Below, piece by piece: positions 4,004 through 47,345 of a DNA stretch of 64,000 bases. Within the stretch, counting starts at the first letter, position 1. The number at the start of each line of letters is the position of its first letter. The DNA is taken from assembly GCA_951406725.2 (NCBI GenBank), contig OX597815.1:71424001-71488000 (forward strand). Reading direction: 5' to 3'. This stretch comes from Octopus vulgaris. Lineage: Eukaryota. Position numbers and translations under genes: made by a program. The notes under the pieces are model-generated. The model was given only the letters and a program-made list of their open reading frames with translations. It was not told the DNA's origin and did not search any database.

Positions 4004-5291
4004 CAGGGTGGGGAAGCAAAATTTACAATATTTTGAGGCAGGGATTGAAAGACAGTGTACAACCAGTTTGTTTATTGAAAGTCATGAGAATTTATTTGCC
4101 ACAAGACAATTTACATAATAGAAAATATTTTTATTCTATGTGTCCTCCTTCTTTCTCAATAAGTGCCTTCACACGCTTCCTGAAATTTGCACAGGCGTTC
4201 CTCAAATATTCGGGAGACAACTTCTCCCATTCTTCTTTAATCGTATCTTTAAGATAGTTGACATTGCTGTGTAATGTTCTATTGATAGCATGTTCTAAAG
4301 TGCCCCAAATAGCATAATCCAGAGAGTTTAGATCTGGGCTGGAATGCGACCATAAACATGATTCCAAAAAATTGCTAAAGTTGGATTTGCAGAAATCTTG
4401 TATTTTTCTAGTTGTGTGGGCTGGAGCACCATCCTGTATCCATACATAATTACCATCTGGGCAGTTTGCTTTAAGCTATGGCAATACCTGGTATCTCAGA
4501 GTCTTGTAGTAAGTATTAACATTGATCTTTTCATCAGCTTTGTAGAATTTTATACGCATTTTCTTTCCATCAGAAGCCACAACACCAAAAGCCATAACTT
4601 GAGCAGGATGTTTTGTTTTTAATGTCCCCTTAACCTCAGCTGTTGATTTTCCGATAAATCTGTCATTTCTGCTGTTCAGAACAGCATCGACAGTGAAGAT
4701 CTTTTCATCTGAAAAGATTGTTACAATGGAGGACTTTTTCTTGAAACATGTAATAATTTTCTTGCACTTCTCCAATCTCTTTTCCTTCATAGCTGTTGTC
4801 AACAAGTGTTTTGGTGTTCTTGTATAAGATTTTAACCTCAAATCATATTTTACAGCATTTCTAATGGTCTTGTTGTCTACCTCAAGTTCAATTGCCATTT
4901 TTCTCATGGATTTGGTTGGATCCTTTAGGATTTGGGATTTGAGAGCTTTAATAAAAGCTTTGGTACGTCTTTTGTTGATTTCTCAACTTCCAGACTTCCT
5001 CGTAATAGATTTGCTCATAGTCATTCTATTCTTTACCTTATAAATAGTCTTTATGGACACTTCAACTATTCTTGAAATCTCCTTTAGTGTGACGAGTGCA
5101 TTCAGAAAATCACACACTCTTTGACTTTTGCTTTCCTGATTACTCATATGGGCAAAAGTTTCTGAAAAGGTAAGGATAATAATGTTAGGTATGAGTATAA
5201 CATCAATATATGCTAGGTTTCAAAACAATTGACTTAGTGCCTGCTGAGAAAAAAACAACTTAACGTTCATTGTAAATTTTGCTTCCCCATG
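4004..5291 (-). mobile_element. Tc1/mariner-superfamily DD37D (maT) transposon, full length
   Basis: Left end TA|CAGGGTGGGGAAGCAAAATTTACAAT (from 4004). Right end ATTGTAAATTTTGCTTCCCCATG|TA (5269-5291), which lacks 3 bp relative to the left TIR. TA target site on both sides. Confidence 0.92.
4131..5147 (-). pseudogene. DD37D (maT) transposase, two in-frame stops, no frameshift
   Basis: Single frame MSNQESKSQRVCDFL...SGS*EIN...IFSDEKIFTVD...VMAFGVV...QVLP*LKAN...WIQDGAPAH...SSPDLNSLDY...EGGHIE. There are 37 residues between the 2nd and 3rd catalytic Asp. Confidence 0.9.
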
Positions 5292-7004: not shown

Positions 7005-8230
7005 ATTATTGAATCTAAAAGTTTATACTTCAGAACAATTATTTCGTATTTGATGACATCTACTATCGTCAAAAATGTGAAATTGCAATGGGAACAAAAG
7101 CAACCACTGTTCTTGTGAGCCTGATAACAGGTTATTTTGAATTCACCATATATGAAATGTCACTGCAAAGATATGGTTATGCATTTTACCATTACATAAG
7201 AGAAATCTGGAAAAGACACCTGGATGACTGTTTTATCATTTGGAAGGAGACCATTGCTAAACTTTTGGAATTCAAATCAACACTAAATGATATAAATAGT
7301 AACATTCAATTCATAATGGAATAAAGCAAAGCACAGTTCCCATTTTTGGATATTATGATTAAAAAACTGACATTTATCATAAACCAAAGGGCTCAAAGTA
7401 TTATCTCCCTTTTAGTTCATGCCACTCAAAATAAATATCCCCTTTAATTTGGCGAAAATAGTGTTTGATAGAACTACTCGGGACATTCATCTTCAAAACC
7501 TCAGAACAACACTAACTGAAAGACAATATCCACCCTCACTTATAGATGATGGAATTAAGCGTGCCAAGAAATTAGATATAAAAACACTAAGGACAACAAA
7601 ACATAACACCACACCTCATCTCAAAACACTACTGTATATATCAACTCACAACCTTAGAAGCAATGAGGCATAGAACACTTATACAAAATCTTACTTTATT
7701 AACTAGAGACCTAAAAATGAACATCCTGAAGGCAAATAAATTCATTAAATGCAAAAAGCAACACAAATTGCTAAAGAGACTTCTAACAAATCTGAAGTTT
7801 ACACAACAACCACGAAACGAATGGTTAAAAAATGTGGATGCTCAAACTATGGAAAATGCCCCAACGCACTTCAAGGTTGGGATTTCCTTTTCAAACAAGG
7901 AGTGAGGTTCACATTTAAAATCAAATTCACTTGTACCTCTGAGAATCTAATTTATGTAATAACCTGCTTGGGTTGTGGACATCACTATATAGGACAGACA
8001 AGTATGGCATTGAGATGGAGAACCACTCTAAATAAAGAGCAGATCCTGTTCCCACAATACAGAGAGATTCCTTTCCGTGAACACATAGAGATATGTGCAG
8101 TTTTCCCCTTCTACTAGTGAAATTTCACAATTTTCCATTTCTACTAGTGAAAAGATAAACATTTCTTTACAAGAACATTTAAATAAAGAAAATTTATTCA
8201 TCATAAAATAGAGAGCAAATCTACATATGC
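7005..8230 (+). pseudogene. Penelope-like RT plus GIY-YIG endonuclease, degraded
   Basis: NNYFVFDDIYYRQKCEIAMGT..WKRHLDDCFIIW..NIQFIME*..FPFLDI (PLE RT), NIPFNLA..RQYPPSLI (thumb), and FTCTSENLIYVITCLGCGHHYIGQT (GIY-YIG). Multiple frameshifts. Confidence 0.88.
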
Positions 8231-8512: not shown

Positions 8513-8545
8513 TGTCATGATTAGCAAAAGTGAAACCAGTCAACA
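8513..8545 (+). ncRNA. Minimal hammerhead ribozyme motif, A3-U8 variant
   Basis: UGUC-AUGAUUA-GC AAAA GU-GAAA-CCAG-UC-AACA. The two copies imply the consensus UGUC AUGAUUA GC AAAA GC GAAA CCGG UC GACA. Confidence 0.65.
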
Positions 8546-12262: not shown

Positions 12263-12960
12263 TTGGATTGGCAACTAAGTTCCCGCTGTTTTATTAAATT
12301 TAAATTTTTTAAAAGGTTTAATAAAAAATAACTAATTAATCAATAATGTATTCACCCTTGTTGTTTACAACCTCTTCCCAACATTCAACAAGATTTTCAA
12401 TACCTCATTGGTAGAAATCACCCGATTTCAACTCGAAAAATTGATCTAACCAAGCTCTCAATTCTGCATCAGTATTGAACGAAACTCCATGCATAGCATT
12501 TGAAAGAGATCGAAAGAGGTGGAAATCTGTTGGTGCCAAATCAGGAGAGTATGGCGGGTGTGGCAGCACTTCCCAGCCATGCTTTTGAATGGCTTCCTTG
12601 GTCATATTGGCGATATGAGGGCAGGCATTGTTGTGCGGAACTCCATGCTGCCGATTAGGTCTTTTCTCTTGAATAGCCATGTTGAGTCGTTCCATCAGTT
12701 GAACATAGAGTTCCGTGTTGACCATATGGTTCCATTCAAGCAATTCATAATGGATAATCCCTTTCCAGTCCCACCATACACACAACATTGTTTTATGCAG
12801 ATGAAGATCTTGTTTCATGCACGGTGTCGCTTGTTTACCAGGGCTAAGCCATTCCTTATGCTGCTTCATATTGATGTACAGGCACCATTTTTCGTCTCCA
12901 GTAATGAATCAGTAAAGAAATCGTTACTTGTGTCCATGAGTTGAACAGTGACAAGCAAGC
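12263..12960 (-). mobile_element. mariner transposon 3' half, probably mellifera subfamily
   Basis: TIR TA|TTGGATTGGCAACTAAGT at 12261. Reads ITGDEKWCLYINMKQHKEWLSPG..MLCVWWD..HNNACPH (D to N)..HPPYSPDLAPTDFHLF..GEYIID* with the stop at 12336. Confidence 0.88.
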
Positions 12961-29523: not shown

Positions 29524-31801
29524 ATCATCATCATCATCATCATCATTTAGCGTCCGTTTTCCATGCTAGCATGGGTTGGACGGTTCTGCTGGGGTCTGTG
29601 AAGCCAGAAGGCTTCATCAGGCCCAGTCAAATCTGGCAGTGTTTCTACGGCTGGATGCCCTTCCTAACGCCAACCACTCCGTGAGTGTAGTGGGTGCTTT
29701 TTACGTGCCACCCGCACTGGTGCCAGCCAGAGCTGGCAAACGGCCACGAACGGATGGTGTTTTTTATGTGCCACCGGCACGAGGGCCAGGCGAGGCTGGC
29801 AACGAACACGAAACGGGGCGGTGCTGGCAACGGTCGCGAAACGGAAGGTTCTCTTACATGCCACCGGCACTGGTAACACATCTGCAATTTCCATTGATCG
29901 ATTTCCATTGATCGATTTCGATTCTGATCCTCACTTGCCTCAATGGGTCTTCACAAGCAGAGTTTCGACATGCCACCGGCACTGGTAGCACATCCTCAAT
30001 TTCCATTGATCGATTTCGATTCTGATCCTCACTTGCCTCAACACGTCTTCACAAGTAGAGTTTTGTGTCCCAAGAAGGGAAGGTATGCATACGTAGGCTG
30101 GCTCCATCCCATGTAGAAGGCCACGGGTTGTGGACTCACTTGTCCTGCCGGGTCTTCTCGCGCACAGCACACTTCCAGAGGTCTCGGTCTCTAGTCATTT
30201 CCTCGGTGAGACCTAAAGTTCGAAGGTCGTGCTTCACCACCTCGTCCCAGGTTTTCCTGGGTCTGCCTCTTCCACAGGTTCCCTCAACCGCTAGGGTGTG
30301 GCACTTTTTCACACAACTATCTTCATCCATTCTCGCCACATGACCATACCAGCGCAAACGTCTCTCTTACACACCACAACTGATGCTTCTTAGGTCCAGC
30401 TTTTCTCTCAAGGTACTTACACTCTGCCGAGTGTGAGTACTGGCATTACACATCCATCGGAGCATACTGGCTTCATTTCTAGCGAGCTTACGCATATCCT
30501 CAGCAGTCACGGCCCATGTTTCACTGCCATGTAGCATGGCTGTTCGTACACACGCATCATACAGTCTGCCTTTCACTCTGTGCGAGAGGCCTTTTGTCAC
30601 CAGCAGAGGTAAGAGCTCTCTGAACTTTGCCCAAGCTATTCTTACTCTAGCAGTTACACTTTCAGCACACCCGCCCCCGCTGCTGACTTGGTCACCTAGG
30701 TAACGGAAACTATCAACTATTTCTAGTTTTTCTCCCTGGAAAGTGACAGAAGTTGGTCTCAGAGCATTTTCAGTGTTTATTGTTCCTGAGCATCTGCCAC
30801 ATACAAAAACCATCTTCCTAGTTAGCCTTCCTTTGACATTGCTGCATCTCTTATGTGTCCATAGCTTACACTTGGTGCATCTTATAGAGTTTCTACCTAC
30901 ACCTTTTCTACAGATCGAGCAGGGCCATCTACCTGAAGGTGTTTGTGATTTGTCTACCTTCCTACTGATTACGACTTTGGTTTTAGCTAGATTGACTCTG
31001 AGGCCCTTCGATTCTAATCCTTGTTTCCACACCTGAAACTTCTCCTCCAGTTCTGATAGCGACTCAGCAATTAGAGCAAGGTCATCAGCATAGAGGAGCT
31101 CCCAAGGGCATCCTGTCTTGAATTCCTCCGTTATTGCCTGGAGGACTATGATAAATAGGAGGGGGCTGAGTACTGAGCCTTGGTGGACCCCTACCTCTAC
31201 CCGGAATTCTTCACTGTACTCATTTCCAACCCTCACCCTACTAGCGGCGTCCCTATACATGGCCCGCACAGCTCTCACTAACCATTCATCTATCCCTAGT
31301 TTTCTCATTGCCCACCAGATAAGGGATCGGGGGACCCTGTCGAAGGCTTTCTCCATGTCAACAAAAGCCAGGTACAGGGGCTTATCTTTGGCTAGGTATT
31401 TCTCCTGCAGCTGCCTTACCAGGAATATAGCATCAGTAGTACTTTTCCCTGGCACAAACCCAAACTGCATCTCATCTAAACTAACTCTCTCTCTAATTAG
31501 TTGGGCTATGACCCTCTCCGTAACCTTCATCACCTGGTCCAACAGCTTGATACCTCTGTAGTTGTTTGTATCTAGGGCATCACCTTTACCTTTGTAGCAG
31601 TTGACTATTATACTGCTACACCAGTCATTGGGTATGACCCCTTTGTGTATCACCTGATTAACTATATGGGTGACTAGGCTATAGCCGACACTACCAGACA
31701 TTTTGAGCATCTCTGCAGTGACCAGACATTTTGAGCATCTCTGCAGTGACCAGACATTTTGAGCATCTCTGCAGTGACCAGACATTTTGAGCATCTCTGC
31801 A
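29524..31801 (-). mobile_element. Young 5'-truncated RTE-clade LINE
   Basis: RT ORF, a ~600-bp 3' UTR with internal duplications, a (GAT)n tail at 29524-29546, and a 28-bp unit repeated four times at the 5' truncation point. Confidence 0.93.
30136..31720 (-). pseudogene. RTE reverse transcriptase (5'-truncated, one nonsense codon)
   Basis: IPNDW..KGKGD..NYRGIKLL..QFGFVPGKSTTDAIF..FVDMEKAFDRVPR..GVHQGSVLSPLLF..LLYADDL..FRYLG..HGSETW..CGV*ERRLRWYGHV..GRGRPRKTW. A single stop lies at 30367-30369 and the frame is the same on both sides. Confidence 0.93.
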
Positions 31802-31860
<59 letters not shown>

Positions 31861-31862
<2 letters not shown>

Positions 31863-32343
31863 AAATTAATGAAGTTGATGTTTGATCATAGAGTGACCAA
31901 TAGTTTCACATCCATAAATGCTGTAGCTTTGTGGATGATTCATCAGACTCTAGTCCAAAGACAAAATTAACCTCTGGTAGGTAGAAAGCCATTATGGTTT
32001 TCCATAATAGACCAGCTATTTATGGACCTGAAGAGGGCAATAGGGGATCTATCTCTTGGGTTGCTATTGGATCGAAGGACTCTTCCAGGCTTAGTCAACG
32101 GACAGGGAATTCCATGCTTGCAGCAAATAGCATTTGAAATGGATGCATGGTGTGAAGATTTTTTAGCAAGCATTCAGTGATCCAGTCTCAGGGTGTCTTT
32201 GAGTAGTCTAGCTTGCTCAGCTATGCAGAGCTTGCAGTGCACACTCCCGTTGATATAGGGTCCAGGTCGTTCTAAGATCTTCTACCTGATATCATATGGG
32301 GTCCCTTCATCTTTTAGGCACCACACATGGCTGGCCAGAGATG
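31861..32343 (-). mobile_element. Penelope-like element 3' fragment (endonuclease C-terminus plus 3' UTR)
   Basis: Minus strand SLASHVWCLKDEGTPYDIR*KILERPGPYINGSVHCKLCIAE../LNAC*KIFTPCIH matches the PLE C-terminal pattern LSxHxWxLK..W.IL..Y..CxLC..E..LN..C.H. Confidence 0.75.
31889..31952 (-). ncRNA. Minimal hammerhead ribozyme, canonical core
   Basis: UAGAGU-CUGAUGA-A(U)CAUCCA..UGGAUGU-GAAA-C-UAUUG-G-UC-ACUCUA, with a 6-bp helix I and a GUC cleavage triplet. Confidence 0.8.
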
Positions 32344-41215: not shown

Positions 41216-41287
<72 letters not shown>

Positions 41288-41290
<3 letters not shown>

Positions 41291-42038
41291 GAAATATTTA
41301 AGATTAAATCAAATTTCACCTGTGCCTTGGAAAATCTAATCTATGCGATTACATGCTTAAGGTGTGGTAATCATTATATTGGCCAAATAGGAATATCACT
41401 CCGTCAAAGAACCACTCTCCACAAAGAACAAATCTGTCATCCACAATACTGACAGATACAGGTCAGTGAACACATAGAAAGGTGTGCTAGGAACTTTAAT
41501 CCTAATTTCCTAATTTTCCCCTTCTATCAATGTTCACAAAACACTACAGTACAACAAAGAATGAATAAAGAGGCAACTTTTATAAATAAATATCTTCCAC
41601 AACTCAATATGAACACATAACTTAATACAGAACACCACTATCTTTTCAATTAATACCACCCATACATCCTATACACCATTCACATTACAAATCTATATCT
41701 ACCCTAATTGCACCAAATCCAGAACTACTTACCTCCCTTACACATAATCTTTTTACTCAAGGACTAGTAGACCCAACACCGTTCGGTAATCGGTGTGCAT
41801 TCAAAGCAGTGATCAGTAATTTTTATGAAACTGGTATGCTTTTGAATCTCTTTAACAATTCACATGAATGACTTTTATTACTTTTATTCCTACCTCAGTT
41901 CATCTAATTGTATATATCTATCGTTACTTTTCATAAAAAGCCTTTACTTTTTGGGATTTCCAATGTGCATTTTCGCTTATTTTTCTTCTTACTTTACCCT
42001 TACATTTCTACGTATAGTTACTATTTTCTTTCTGTAAC

Positions 42039-42045
<7 letters not shown>
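41288..42045 (+). mobile_element. Penelope-like element 3' fragment (GIY-YIG domain 41288-41620 plus 3' UTR)
   Basis: FKIKSNFTCALENLIYAITCLRCGNHYIGQIG..RTTLHKEQI..SEHIERC..IFPFYQ..NKEATFINKYLPQLN, related to 7900-8230. (TA)n on both sides. Confidence 0.88.
41799..41847 (+). ncRNA. Minimal hammerhead ribozyme, G3-C8 variant
   Basis: AUUCAAAGCA-GUGAUCA-GUAA UUU UUAU-GAAA-CUGG-UA-UGCUUUUGAAU, with a 10-bp helix I (one bulge) and a GUA triplet. Confidence 0.78.
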
Positions 42046-42091: not shown

Positions 42092-42462
42092 TCCGCTCAG
42101 TCAAAGTCGACTCTCAGTTATTCGTTGGATCAGTGTCCTCCAGTCAGTTCTATCCTGGGCCACTTCTTTCAGATTGGCTATGTCCATTCCAGTATCCCTC
42201 TTGATGGTGTCAAGCCAGCGGGTTCTTGGTTGGCCTCTTCCTCTCTTGCCACTGACCATTCCGAGCATGATGTCCTTCTCCAGGGATTTTCTCCACATAA
42301 CATGACCGAAATATGCCAATCTATGCTTGGTGATCCTAGCTTCTAGTGACATTTTCGGCCTGATCTGCTTAAGAACTTCTCCATTGGTGAACCTCACTGT
42401 CCATGGAATCCATAAAAGTCTTCTCCAACACCAAAGCTCGAATGCATTAATTCTCTTCTGGG
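42092..42462 (-). mobile_element. RTE-BovB-like LINE 3' fragment
   Basis: RINAFELWCWRRLLWIPWT..SLEARI..YFGHV..SLEKDIMLG..GKRGRGQPRTRWLD..DRTDWR..ESRL is the BovB-type C-terminus. Flanked by (TA)n. Confidence 0.85.
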
Positions 42463-42480
42463 AATATATATATATATATA

Positions 42481-42830
42481 TCATCATCGTTTAACATCCG
42501 TTTTCCATGCTGGTATGGGTTGGACGGTTTGACTGGTGACTGGCAAGCCAAGAGGCCACACAAGGCTCCAGTCTGATCTGGCAATGTTTCTACAGCTTGG
42601 TGCCCTTCCTAATGCCAACTACTCTGAGAGTGTAGTGGGTGCTTTTTATGTGCCACCGTCAAGGAGGCTAGTCAGGTGGCACTGGCATCAGCTATGTTCA
42701 GATGGTGCTTTTTTATGTGCCACCAGCACGGGGAGCCAGTCAGGACCTCTGGCAGCAACCCCTGCATGAATGGTGCTTATTGCGTGCCACCAGCACTGGT
42801 ATCGGCTACAACTACAATTTCCATTTGATT
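42481..42830 (-). mobile_element. RTE 3' UTR copy
   Basis: Matches 29530-29900 in the same orientation. Confidence 0.8.
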
Positions 42831-47046: not shown

Positions 47047-47077
<31 letters not shown>

Positions 47078-47159
47078 GTATATTACGGAGATGTACTTGC
47101 ACAGCAAGTGACCTGATCTGAGATCATGTGCTGAAACAAAAACAATTGCAGTACAGAAT

Positions 47160-47210
47160 TTTGTCAGTGAACAGGTCGCGGTCTGAAAGCGACGAAAATA
47201 TTTTGACAAA
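47160..47210 (+). ncRNA. Minimal hammerhead ribozyme, G3-C8 variant with an extra nucleotide after A9
   Basis: UUUGUCA-GUGAACA-G-GUCGC GGUCUGAAA GCGAC-GAAA-AUAU-UU-UGACAAA, with a 7-bp helix I, a 5-bp helix II and the palindrome AAUAUU. Confidence 0.72.
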
Positions 47211-47312
47211 TTAAATTTAAATGTTGAAGTGAATCTAACAGTTTTTGTGTGTTTCTTAAATGGCTTATAAACACCTTCCACGTTGCAATTGTTTATATAT
47301 ATATATATATAT

Positions 47313-47345
<33 letters not shown>

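What the first reader, a model, noticed from the sequence alone, without database searches (positions are those of the whole stretch)
41799..41847. G3-C8 hammerhead in the 3' UTR of a GIY-YIG Penelope fragment
The motif has a 10-bp helix I, core GUGAUCA, a 4-bp helix II and GAAA-CUGG-UA (inferred ancestral CCGG). The upstream endonuclease is clearly related to the one at 7900-8230, whose ribozyme uses A3-U8. Two related elements therefore differ by a compensatory change in the catalytic core.
Basis: partly seen in the sequence, partly recalled or inferred. Interest (0 to 1): 0.75.

Follow-up and report, generated by a model that had tools for sequence, protein, structure and literature searches.

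The report
Swapped-core hammerhead in Neptune retroelement
This is a worn copy of a likely self-cutting RNA motif (hammerhead) at the tail of a jumping gene whose lineage has changed one paired pair of core letters again and again while keeping it paired, which suggests the cutting shape is still being selected, although cutting itself is untested.

Summary
The motif is real and lies in the 3' tail of a dead, 5'-truncated Neptune-type Penelope-like element. G3-C8 is a family trait, not decay: of 78 related copies, 36 are G3-C8, 37 are A3-U8 and 5 are unpaired. The cleanest compensatory change is therefore inside this family, not between it and the element at 7900-8230, whose A3-U8 arose separately (AU test p=3e-11). 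Genome-wide, 4541 motifs of this CCGG type are U3-A8 (2822), A3-U8 (1195), G3-C8 (108) and C3-G8 (5); 19 of 23 relatives from other animals keep C3-G8. Helix I has a bulge, and the window copy has two CpG-type hits, so it is probably weak or dead. Cutting is untested; copy ends show no sign of it. Natural U3-A8 and lab-made G3-C8 are published. I found no natural G3-C8 or A3-U8 in print, but could not read Lunse 2017. The scan noted swapped cores earlier on other DNA of this genome. Verdict: a new variant of a known kind.

The parts
41287..42045 (+). 5'-truncated dead copy of a Neptune-type Penelope-like element (family A), between two (TA)n tracts
   Evidence: 3' end inferred from the start of the (TA)n tract
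41291..41617 (+). GIY-YIG endonuclease remnant with an in-frame stop at 41450-41452
   Evidence: 58% identical over 107 aa to the intact 811-aa ORF of L247; weak Pfam GIY-YIG, E 0.035
41776..41796 (+). 6-bp hairpin just upstream of helix I, kept in the A families; role unknown
41799..41808 (+). helix I, 5' strand
41809..41815 (+). core G3 U4 G5 A6 U7 C8 A9 (G3 = 41809, C8 = 41814)
41816..41826 (+). helix II and loop; window copy has U at 11.1 (family C) and one extra U in the loop
41827..41836 (+). G12-A15.1, palindromic helix III arm (CUGG here, CCGG in the family), U16.1, A17; predicted cut after 41836
41837..41847 (+). helix I, 3' strand, with one bulged U
7019..8230 (+). decayed RT and endonuclease of the related family B element
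8513..8545 (+). decayed A3-U8 hammerhead of family B (A3 = 8517, C17 = 8541)
47160..47210 (+). second G3-C8 hammerhead (family C), different design: extra G before a 5-bp helix II, AUAU arm, U17
   Evidence: 18 of 20 copies G3-C8

Best explanation
This is a decayed copy of the minimal type I hammerhead motif in the tail of a Neptune-type Penelope-like element, from a family whose core pair 3-8 is G-C instead of C-G, and the intact family RNA likely cut itself slowly after A17 by pairing with a second copy. Shown: the motif, its place about 190 nt behind the endonuclease frame, the family states, and repeated double changes at 3 and 8 that keep a Watson-Crick pair. Inferred: two motifs pair through the self-complementary ACCGGU arm to build helix III, possibly helped by the element's own protein; the 3-8 pair forms in the active fold and holds the 2'-OH of residue 8 at the cut, so any Watson-Crick pair is tolerated and mismatches are purged in the active source elements. 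Inferred: cutting is slow or partial, since nearly all inserted copies were made from RNA that runs through the site. The window copy itself is likely weak or dead.
For: Family: 36 G-C, 37 A-U, 5 unpaired of 78 copies (sample partly chosen by state); r2 = 1.0 between 41809 and 41814, the top of 377 column pairs. The A-U subfamily differs from the G-C subfamily nearest to it at 12 of 1170 columns, of which 5 are clearly its own changes, and 2 of these are positions 3 and 8; chance about 1e-5 to 3e-4 for the named pair. G-C is the older state: it is kept in relatives up to about 23% diverged. Genome census: 4130 of 4541 motifs have a Watson-Crick 3-8 pair, in all four forms. Tree: host lineage 100/99, at least 3 changes of state inside it; A3-U8 families are rejected as one clade, p-AU 2.7e-11. 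Helix I pairs with different sequences in each family. The 3-8 pair is seen in the tertiary-stabilised structure and not in minimal-hammerhead crystals (PMC3884650, passages). C3G/G8C partly rescues cutting in a Penelope-like element hammerhead, which needs the element's protein (PMC11167929, passages). Minimal PLE hammerheads cut weakly as dimers (PMC4209133).
Against: No cutting assay. Only 2 of 87 copies begin at the predicted cut, no more than ordinary 5' truncation gives. 94 of 107 aligned copies (the reference included) run at least 140 nt past the cut, so insertion used uncut or rejoined RNA. The PAc study found cutting dispensable for insertion in vitro and no RNA-seq ends at the cut. 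Each switch is one event copied many times: the counts are copies, not independent events (about 4 events in this lineage, counting the loss of C-G). Helix II has only 2-3 bp in these families. In the window copy the dimer arm falls from -8.3 to -3.2 kcal/mol and G10.1-C11.1 is G.U.
Confidence: 0.7

Rival explanations
1. The hammerhead fold is kept as a protein-binding or RNA-folding element (for reverse transcriptase loading, translation of the upstream frame, or dimerisation) and no longer cuts at a useful rate; 3-8 pairing is kept for shape only.
For: Copies run through the site; no pile-up of ends at the cut; catalytic mutants did not impair PAc insertion in vitro; G3-C8 gives only partial rescue in the lab.
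Against: G12, G5, A6, A9, A13, A14 and U16.1 stay fixed and position 17 is A, C or U in family majorities, the pattern expected of a cutting core; the 3-8 pair belongs to the active fold. The census patterns required these letters, so only the homology-based alignments bear on this.
Confidence: 0.22
2. The states at 3 and 8 are neutral passengers of a few successful source elements; the apparent pairing is linkage plus A+T-biased mutation.
For: Few independent events; U-A and A-U dominate in an A+T-rich genome; 411 of 4541 motifs are not Watson-Crick, and a U3.G8 group recurs in the rows.
Against: Every family majority sampled is Watson-Crick paired; U-A to A-U or G-C needs two transversions; 2 of 5 clear changes in 1170 columns hit this pair; G-C arose against the A+T bias and lasted through about 23% divergence.
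Confidence: 0.05
3. The window motif is a canonical hammerhead that decayed to G3 and C8 after insertion.
For: The copy is dead and has 11 differences from its subfamily majority in 321 nt.
Against: G3-C8 is shared by 36 of 78 copies and by older relatives; one copy of 78 has C3 and none has C3-G8.
Confidence: 0.01

Closest known systems
Minimal type I hammerheads in pseudo-LTRs of metazoan Penelope-like elements (Cervera and de la Pena 2014, PMC4209133; read parts 1-2 of 4 of the main text and part 2 of 3 of supplementary file 2; file 1 could not be searched)
   Same: Place in the element's terminal repeat, no real helix III, short palindrome for dimer pairing, G10.1-C11.1, many dispersed truncated copies; a U3-A8 core variant was reported in Schistosoma mansoni.
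   Different: G3-C8 and A3-U8 cores: not in the text read, nor among the 44 alignment rows of Fig. S3 that I saw (of 56), which all start with C3 or U3. Helix II is 2-3 bp with no extra nucleotide after A9. Here non-canonical pairs are the rule for a whole lineage.
Natural U3-A8 hammerheads (Perreault et al. 2011, PMC3088659; passages)
   Same: Covariation at the 3-8 pair in nature.
   Different: Only U3-A8 is named in the passages seen, as a rare variant; purine at position 3 is not.
PAc (Poseidon, Anolis) hammerhead and its C3G/G8C mutant (PMC11167929; passages)
   Same: A PLE hammerhead in which G3-C8 partly restores cutting; RNA used for insertion is uncut.
   Different: G3-C8 there is a lab mutant; PAc belongs to Penelope/Poseidon, and its ORF starts inside the motif.
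Neptune/Nematis clades of Penelope-like elements (Craig et al. 2021, PMC8557442; passages)
   Same: RT followed by a CX4CX2C linker and a GIY-YIG domain with internal cysteines; insertion in (TA)n; inverted 5'-truncated partner copies.
   Different: No reference Neptune or Nematis proteins were in my tree, so the clade name rests on motifs. Their hammerhead searches used CUGANGA, which would miss these motifs.

Membership tests
Hammerhead ribozyme, minimal type I | Three-way junction with helices I and II and an open helix I | tested here: met
   Helix I 6+4 bp, helix II 3 bp in the family; helix I sequence differs between families and still pairs
Hammerhead ribozyme, minimal type I | Literal core CUGANGA | tested here: not met
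   GUGAUCA here; C3-G8 in 5 of 4541 motifs of this type; no Rfam hammerhead hit
Hammerhead ribozyme, minimal type I | Watson-Crick pair between positions 3 and 8 | tested here: met
   73 of 78 family copies; 4130 of 4541 genome-wide
Hammerhead ribozyme, minimal type I | U4 G5 A6, A9, G12 A13 A14 A15.1, U16.1, H17 | tested here: met
   All present in the window copy and in the majorities of homology-selected copies
Hammerhead ribozyme, minimal type I | Palindromic helix III arm for dimer formation | tested here: met
   ACCGGU in the family, duplex -8.3 kcal/mol; ACUGGU in the window copy, -3.2
Hammerhead ribozyme, minimal type I | Site-specific self-cleavage after position 17 | not testable with these tools
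   No assay; copy-end test gave no excess at the cut; only contigs, no raw RNA reads
EN+ Penelope-like element | RT with C-terminal GIY-YIG endonuclease | tested here: met
   Family A copies match up to 729 of 811 aa of the intact L247 ORF; Pfam RVT_1 E 2.8e-7, GIY-YIG weak
EN+ Penelope-like element | 5'-truncated, inverted or tandem insertions with a tail, often in microsatellites | tested here: met
Neptune (or Nematis) clade | CX2-5CxxC linker before the endonuclease and CCHH inside it | tested here: met
   the linker lies upstream of the window copy's 5' end and is read from longer copies
Neptune (or Nematis) clade | RT groups with reference Neptune elements | not tested
   No named reference elements were in the tree

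The most novel reading that the evidence does not exclude
A whole cephalopod-like Neptune lineage has abandoned the canonical C3-G8 pair and cycles among U-A, A-U and G-C because a slowed ribozyme is favoured: the 3-8 pair, with position 17, is a rate dial that lets enough RNA stay uncut to serve as template. Searches that demand CUGANGA miss over 99% of these motifs here, so animal hammerheads may be widely undercounted.
Probability: 0.25. Interest if true: 0.7.

Novelty: new variant of a known kind. Interest (0 to 1): 0.5.

Why it matters
What hammerheads do in Penelope-like elements is open: they cut poorly in a tube, and cutting was dispensable for insertion in the one reconstituted element. 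Repeated double changes at a pair that exists only in the active fold are natural evidence that the catalytic shape is under selection. The lineage gives a ready series for the bench: matched natural G-C and A-U versions that differ almost only at this pair, and a young intact U-A element with its protein. It also shows that standard descriptors and Rfam overlook these motifs.

Tried and rejected
Rfam scans found no hammerhead, in the whole window or in 41700-41950. Cleavage signature in copy ends: 2 of 87 copies start within 2 nt of the cut; 22 copies start in the 30 nt before G3, so this is background. A suspected cluster of 5' ends about 22 nt before G3 (start site or splice site) dissolved into ordinary truncation. 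Idea that position 17 avoids pairing with position 3: G3-C8 motifs have A17 in 98 and U17 in 2 of 100 listed, never C, and family C has U17 in 20 of 20, but this is two lineages, about a dozen rows are segmental duplicates, and the young U3-A8 family has A17, which could pair; inconclusive. Wobble intermediate: G3.U8 occurs in 24 of 4541 motifs, scattered over families; two separate family A insertions share it, but with a loop variant seen in the A-U subfamily, so back-mutation is as likely. Sequencing runs: no RNA holder listed, contigs only; run X13 laid nothing. Copy-level protein tree did not resolve family A. Plain MFE folding does not give the hammerhead fold for a monomer, as expected without helix III. 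Family C could not be tied to a coding element; the RT frame in L276 lies downstream and looks unrelated. Papers not held: Lunse 2017, Przybilski and Hammann 2007, Arkhipova 2017, Martick and Scott 2006 and one further id.

Full report
Observation. The motif is at 41799-41847 as described. Core G3 is 41809, C8 is 41814, A17 is 41836. Helix I has 10 pairs interrupted by one bulged U. The motif lies about 190 nt behind a GIY-YIG remnant (41291-41617, one stop) in a 5'-truncated element of about 760 nt between two (TA)n tracts. Rfam does not detect it.

The family. A DNA search of the 2.8-Gb genome gave 1815 first-look candidates, 40 scored, 30 fetched. Of these 30, 17 are G3-C8, 11 are A3-U8 and 2 are unpaired. 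A pattern that left positions 3, 7 and 8 free found 55 exact copies: U8 in 32, C8 in 21, G8 in 2. After fetching 40 of them and adding loci (chosen for G3-C8), 78 copies aligned: 37 A-U, 36 G-C, and one each of A-C, A-G, C-C, G-G, U-C; one more short A-C copy appeared. Positions 3 and 8 are in complete linkage, r2 = 1.0 over 63 copies, the highest of 377 pairs of variable columns; other subfamily markers reach 0.64 with them. The window copy differs from its subfamily majority at 11 of 321 positions, among them C11.1 to U and CCGG to CUGG, both CpG-type. It is a fossil of average age (about 5% from the majority).

Direction of change. Older relatives (A1, A2, A3; about 1.5%, 6% and 23% from family A) are G3-C8 and branch first, so A3-U8 is derived here. 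Over 1170 columns the A-U subfamily differs from the nearest G-C subfamily (5 copies) at 12; with A1 as outgroup 5 are clearly its own (up to 8), and two are positions 3 and 8. The chance that a named pair is among 5 to 12 random changes is 1e-5 to 3e-4, or up to 5e-3 if any of 16 pairs would count. Contigs of three runs under three organism labels show both letters at both positions; a fourth run laid nothing.

The neighbour at 8517. Its family is A3-U8 in 35 of 36 copies, with a 2-bp helix II and C17. The two endonucleases are 67% identical over 51 aa. A third motif at 47167 is G3-C8 in 18 of 20 copies with a different design.

Census. One pattern (H at 2.1, free 3, 7, 8, G10.1, C11.1, GAAACCGGUH) has 4541 matches against 13 for the control: U-A 2822, A-U 1195, G-C 108, C-G 5, G.U 24. 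Limits: these are exact matches to one helix III type, G at 2.1 is excluded, and copies are not independent. Canonical cores are not rare in this genome: CUGANGA with any 4-nt arm has 1379 matches against 288 for the control, among them retrozyme-like tandem repeats. The shift is a property of this lineage, not of the genome.

Tree. A young U3-A8 element has an intact 811-aa frame with the CX4CX2C linker and cysteines inside GIY-YIG that mark Neptune and Nematis. Relatives were fetched from metagenome and genome contigs (82 loci), probably animal DNA carried along. Of 33 tails examined, 26 had a hammerhead-like motif and 7 had none. I put 23 in the tree (left out: two near-copies with C3-G8 and one doubtful motif): 19 C-G, 2 U-A, 1 U.G, 1 C-U, states read by eye. 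The host families form one branch (100/99) with D (U-A) first, then A (G-C, nested A-U) and B/E (A-U, U-A) (family-majority rows, two long rows and one short family left out). The nearest branch with known states is 13 of 13 C-G (its link to the host branch 88/83, not starred); eight closer database proteins have no DNA context. At least 3 changes of state lie inside the host branch, and the A-U families are rejected as one clade, p-AU 2.7e-11. So the two window elements are not one step apart; A3-U8 arose twice.

Mechanism. In the active hammerhead, 3 and 8 form a Watson-Crick pair that minimal-form crystals lack (PMC3884650, passages); G8C lowers the rate 1e5-fold and C3G partly restores it (PMC8495972, passage; PMC11167929, passages). 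A single pair closing four nucleotides has no stability as plain secondary structure, and the flanking 2.1 and 9 do not pair in families A and B, so keeping it points to the tertiary fold (inference). Helix III can form only between two motifs, through ACCGGU, as proposed for minimal PLE hammerheads. Against a strong role for cutting: 94 of 107 aligned copies run at least 140 nt past the site, and only 2 of 87 begin at it. I therefore favour slow, dimer- and probably protein-dependent cutting in the source elements (0.7) over a purely structural role (0.22).

Known and new. Minimal hammerheads in PLE termini and natural U3-A8 are published. Searches for G3-C8, A3-U8, G3C8, A3U8, 'positions 3 and 8' and octopus with Penelope gave G3-C8 only as a lab mutant and no A3-U8. 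Passages of PMC7761336, PMC6765202, PMC7229834, PMC13725137 and PMC6962438 added nothing on this. The most relevant paper, Lunse et al. 2017, and the Terminon paper were not held, and one supplement of Cervera 2014 could not be searched; they may hold such variants. Earlier notes of this scan report swapped cores on other DNA of this genome; I had reached the family and census result before that look-up.

Verdict. Real, a new variant of a known kind, interest 0.5.

Noticed in passing
window 47047-47313 (core 47167-47173): A second G3-C8 hammerhead family of different design, 3168 first-look candidates in the genome, 18 of 20 copies G3-C8, with tandem units of about 166 bp in L282. Its coding element was not found; it may be an independent origin of G3-C8.
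   Followed up: partly
L247 2030-6116: Young, apparently intact Neptune-type element: 811-aa RT-endonuclease frame, two upstream frames without Pfam match, inverted partner 99.8% identical, U3-A8 hammerhead about 150 nt behind the ORF.
   Followed up: partly
L220-L226, L235, L236, L140: Tandem repeats of about 359 bp with a canonical C3-G8 type I hammerhead, retrozyme-like. G at position 2.1 kept most of them out of the census pattern.
   Followed up: no
G000:C1 rows (e.g. 21474845, 34574028, 34574434): A recurring U3.G8 wobble version of the D-type motif; possibly a real subfamily and a path between U-A and C-G.
   Followed up: no
L371, L373: Copies with internal deletions that remove the hammerhead core between short direct matches, as from template jumps across the structure.
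   Followed up: no
L276 4086-5320: RT frame followed by an endonuclease-like region of another Penelope-like type (Hydra-like by recalled motifs, untested).
   Followed up: no
window 30367-31905 (-), 42101-42490 (-), 4131-4982 (-), 12405-12908 (-): Remnants of RTE-like LINE reverse transcriptases and of Tc1/mariner transposases (named from recalled motifs).
   Followed up: no
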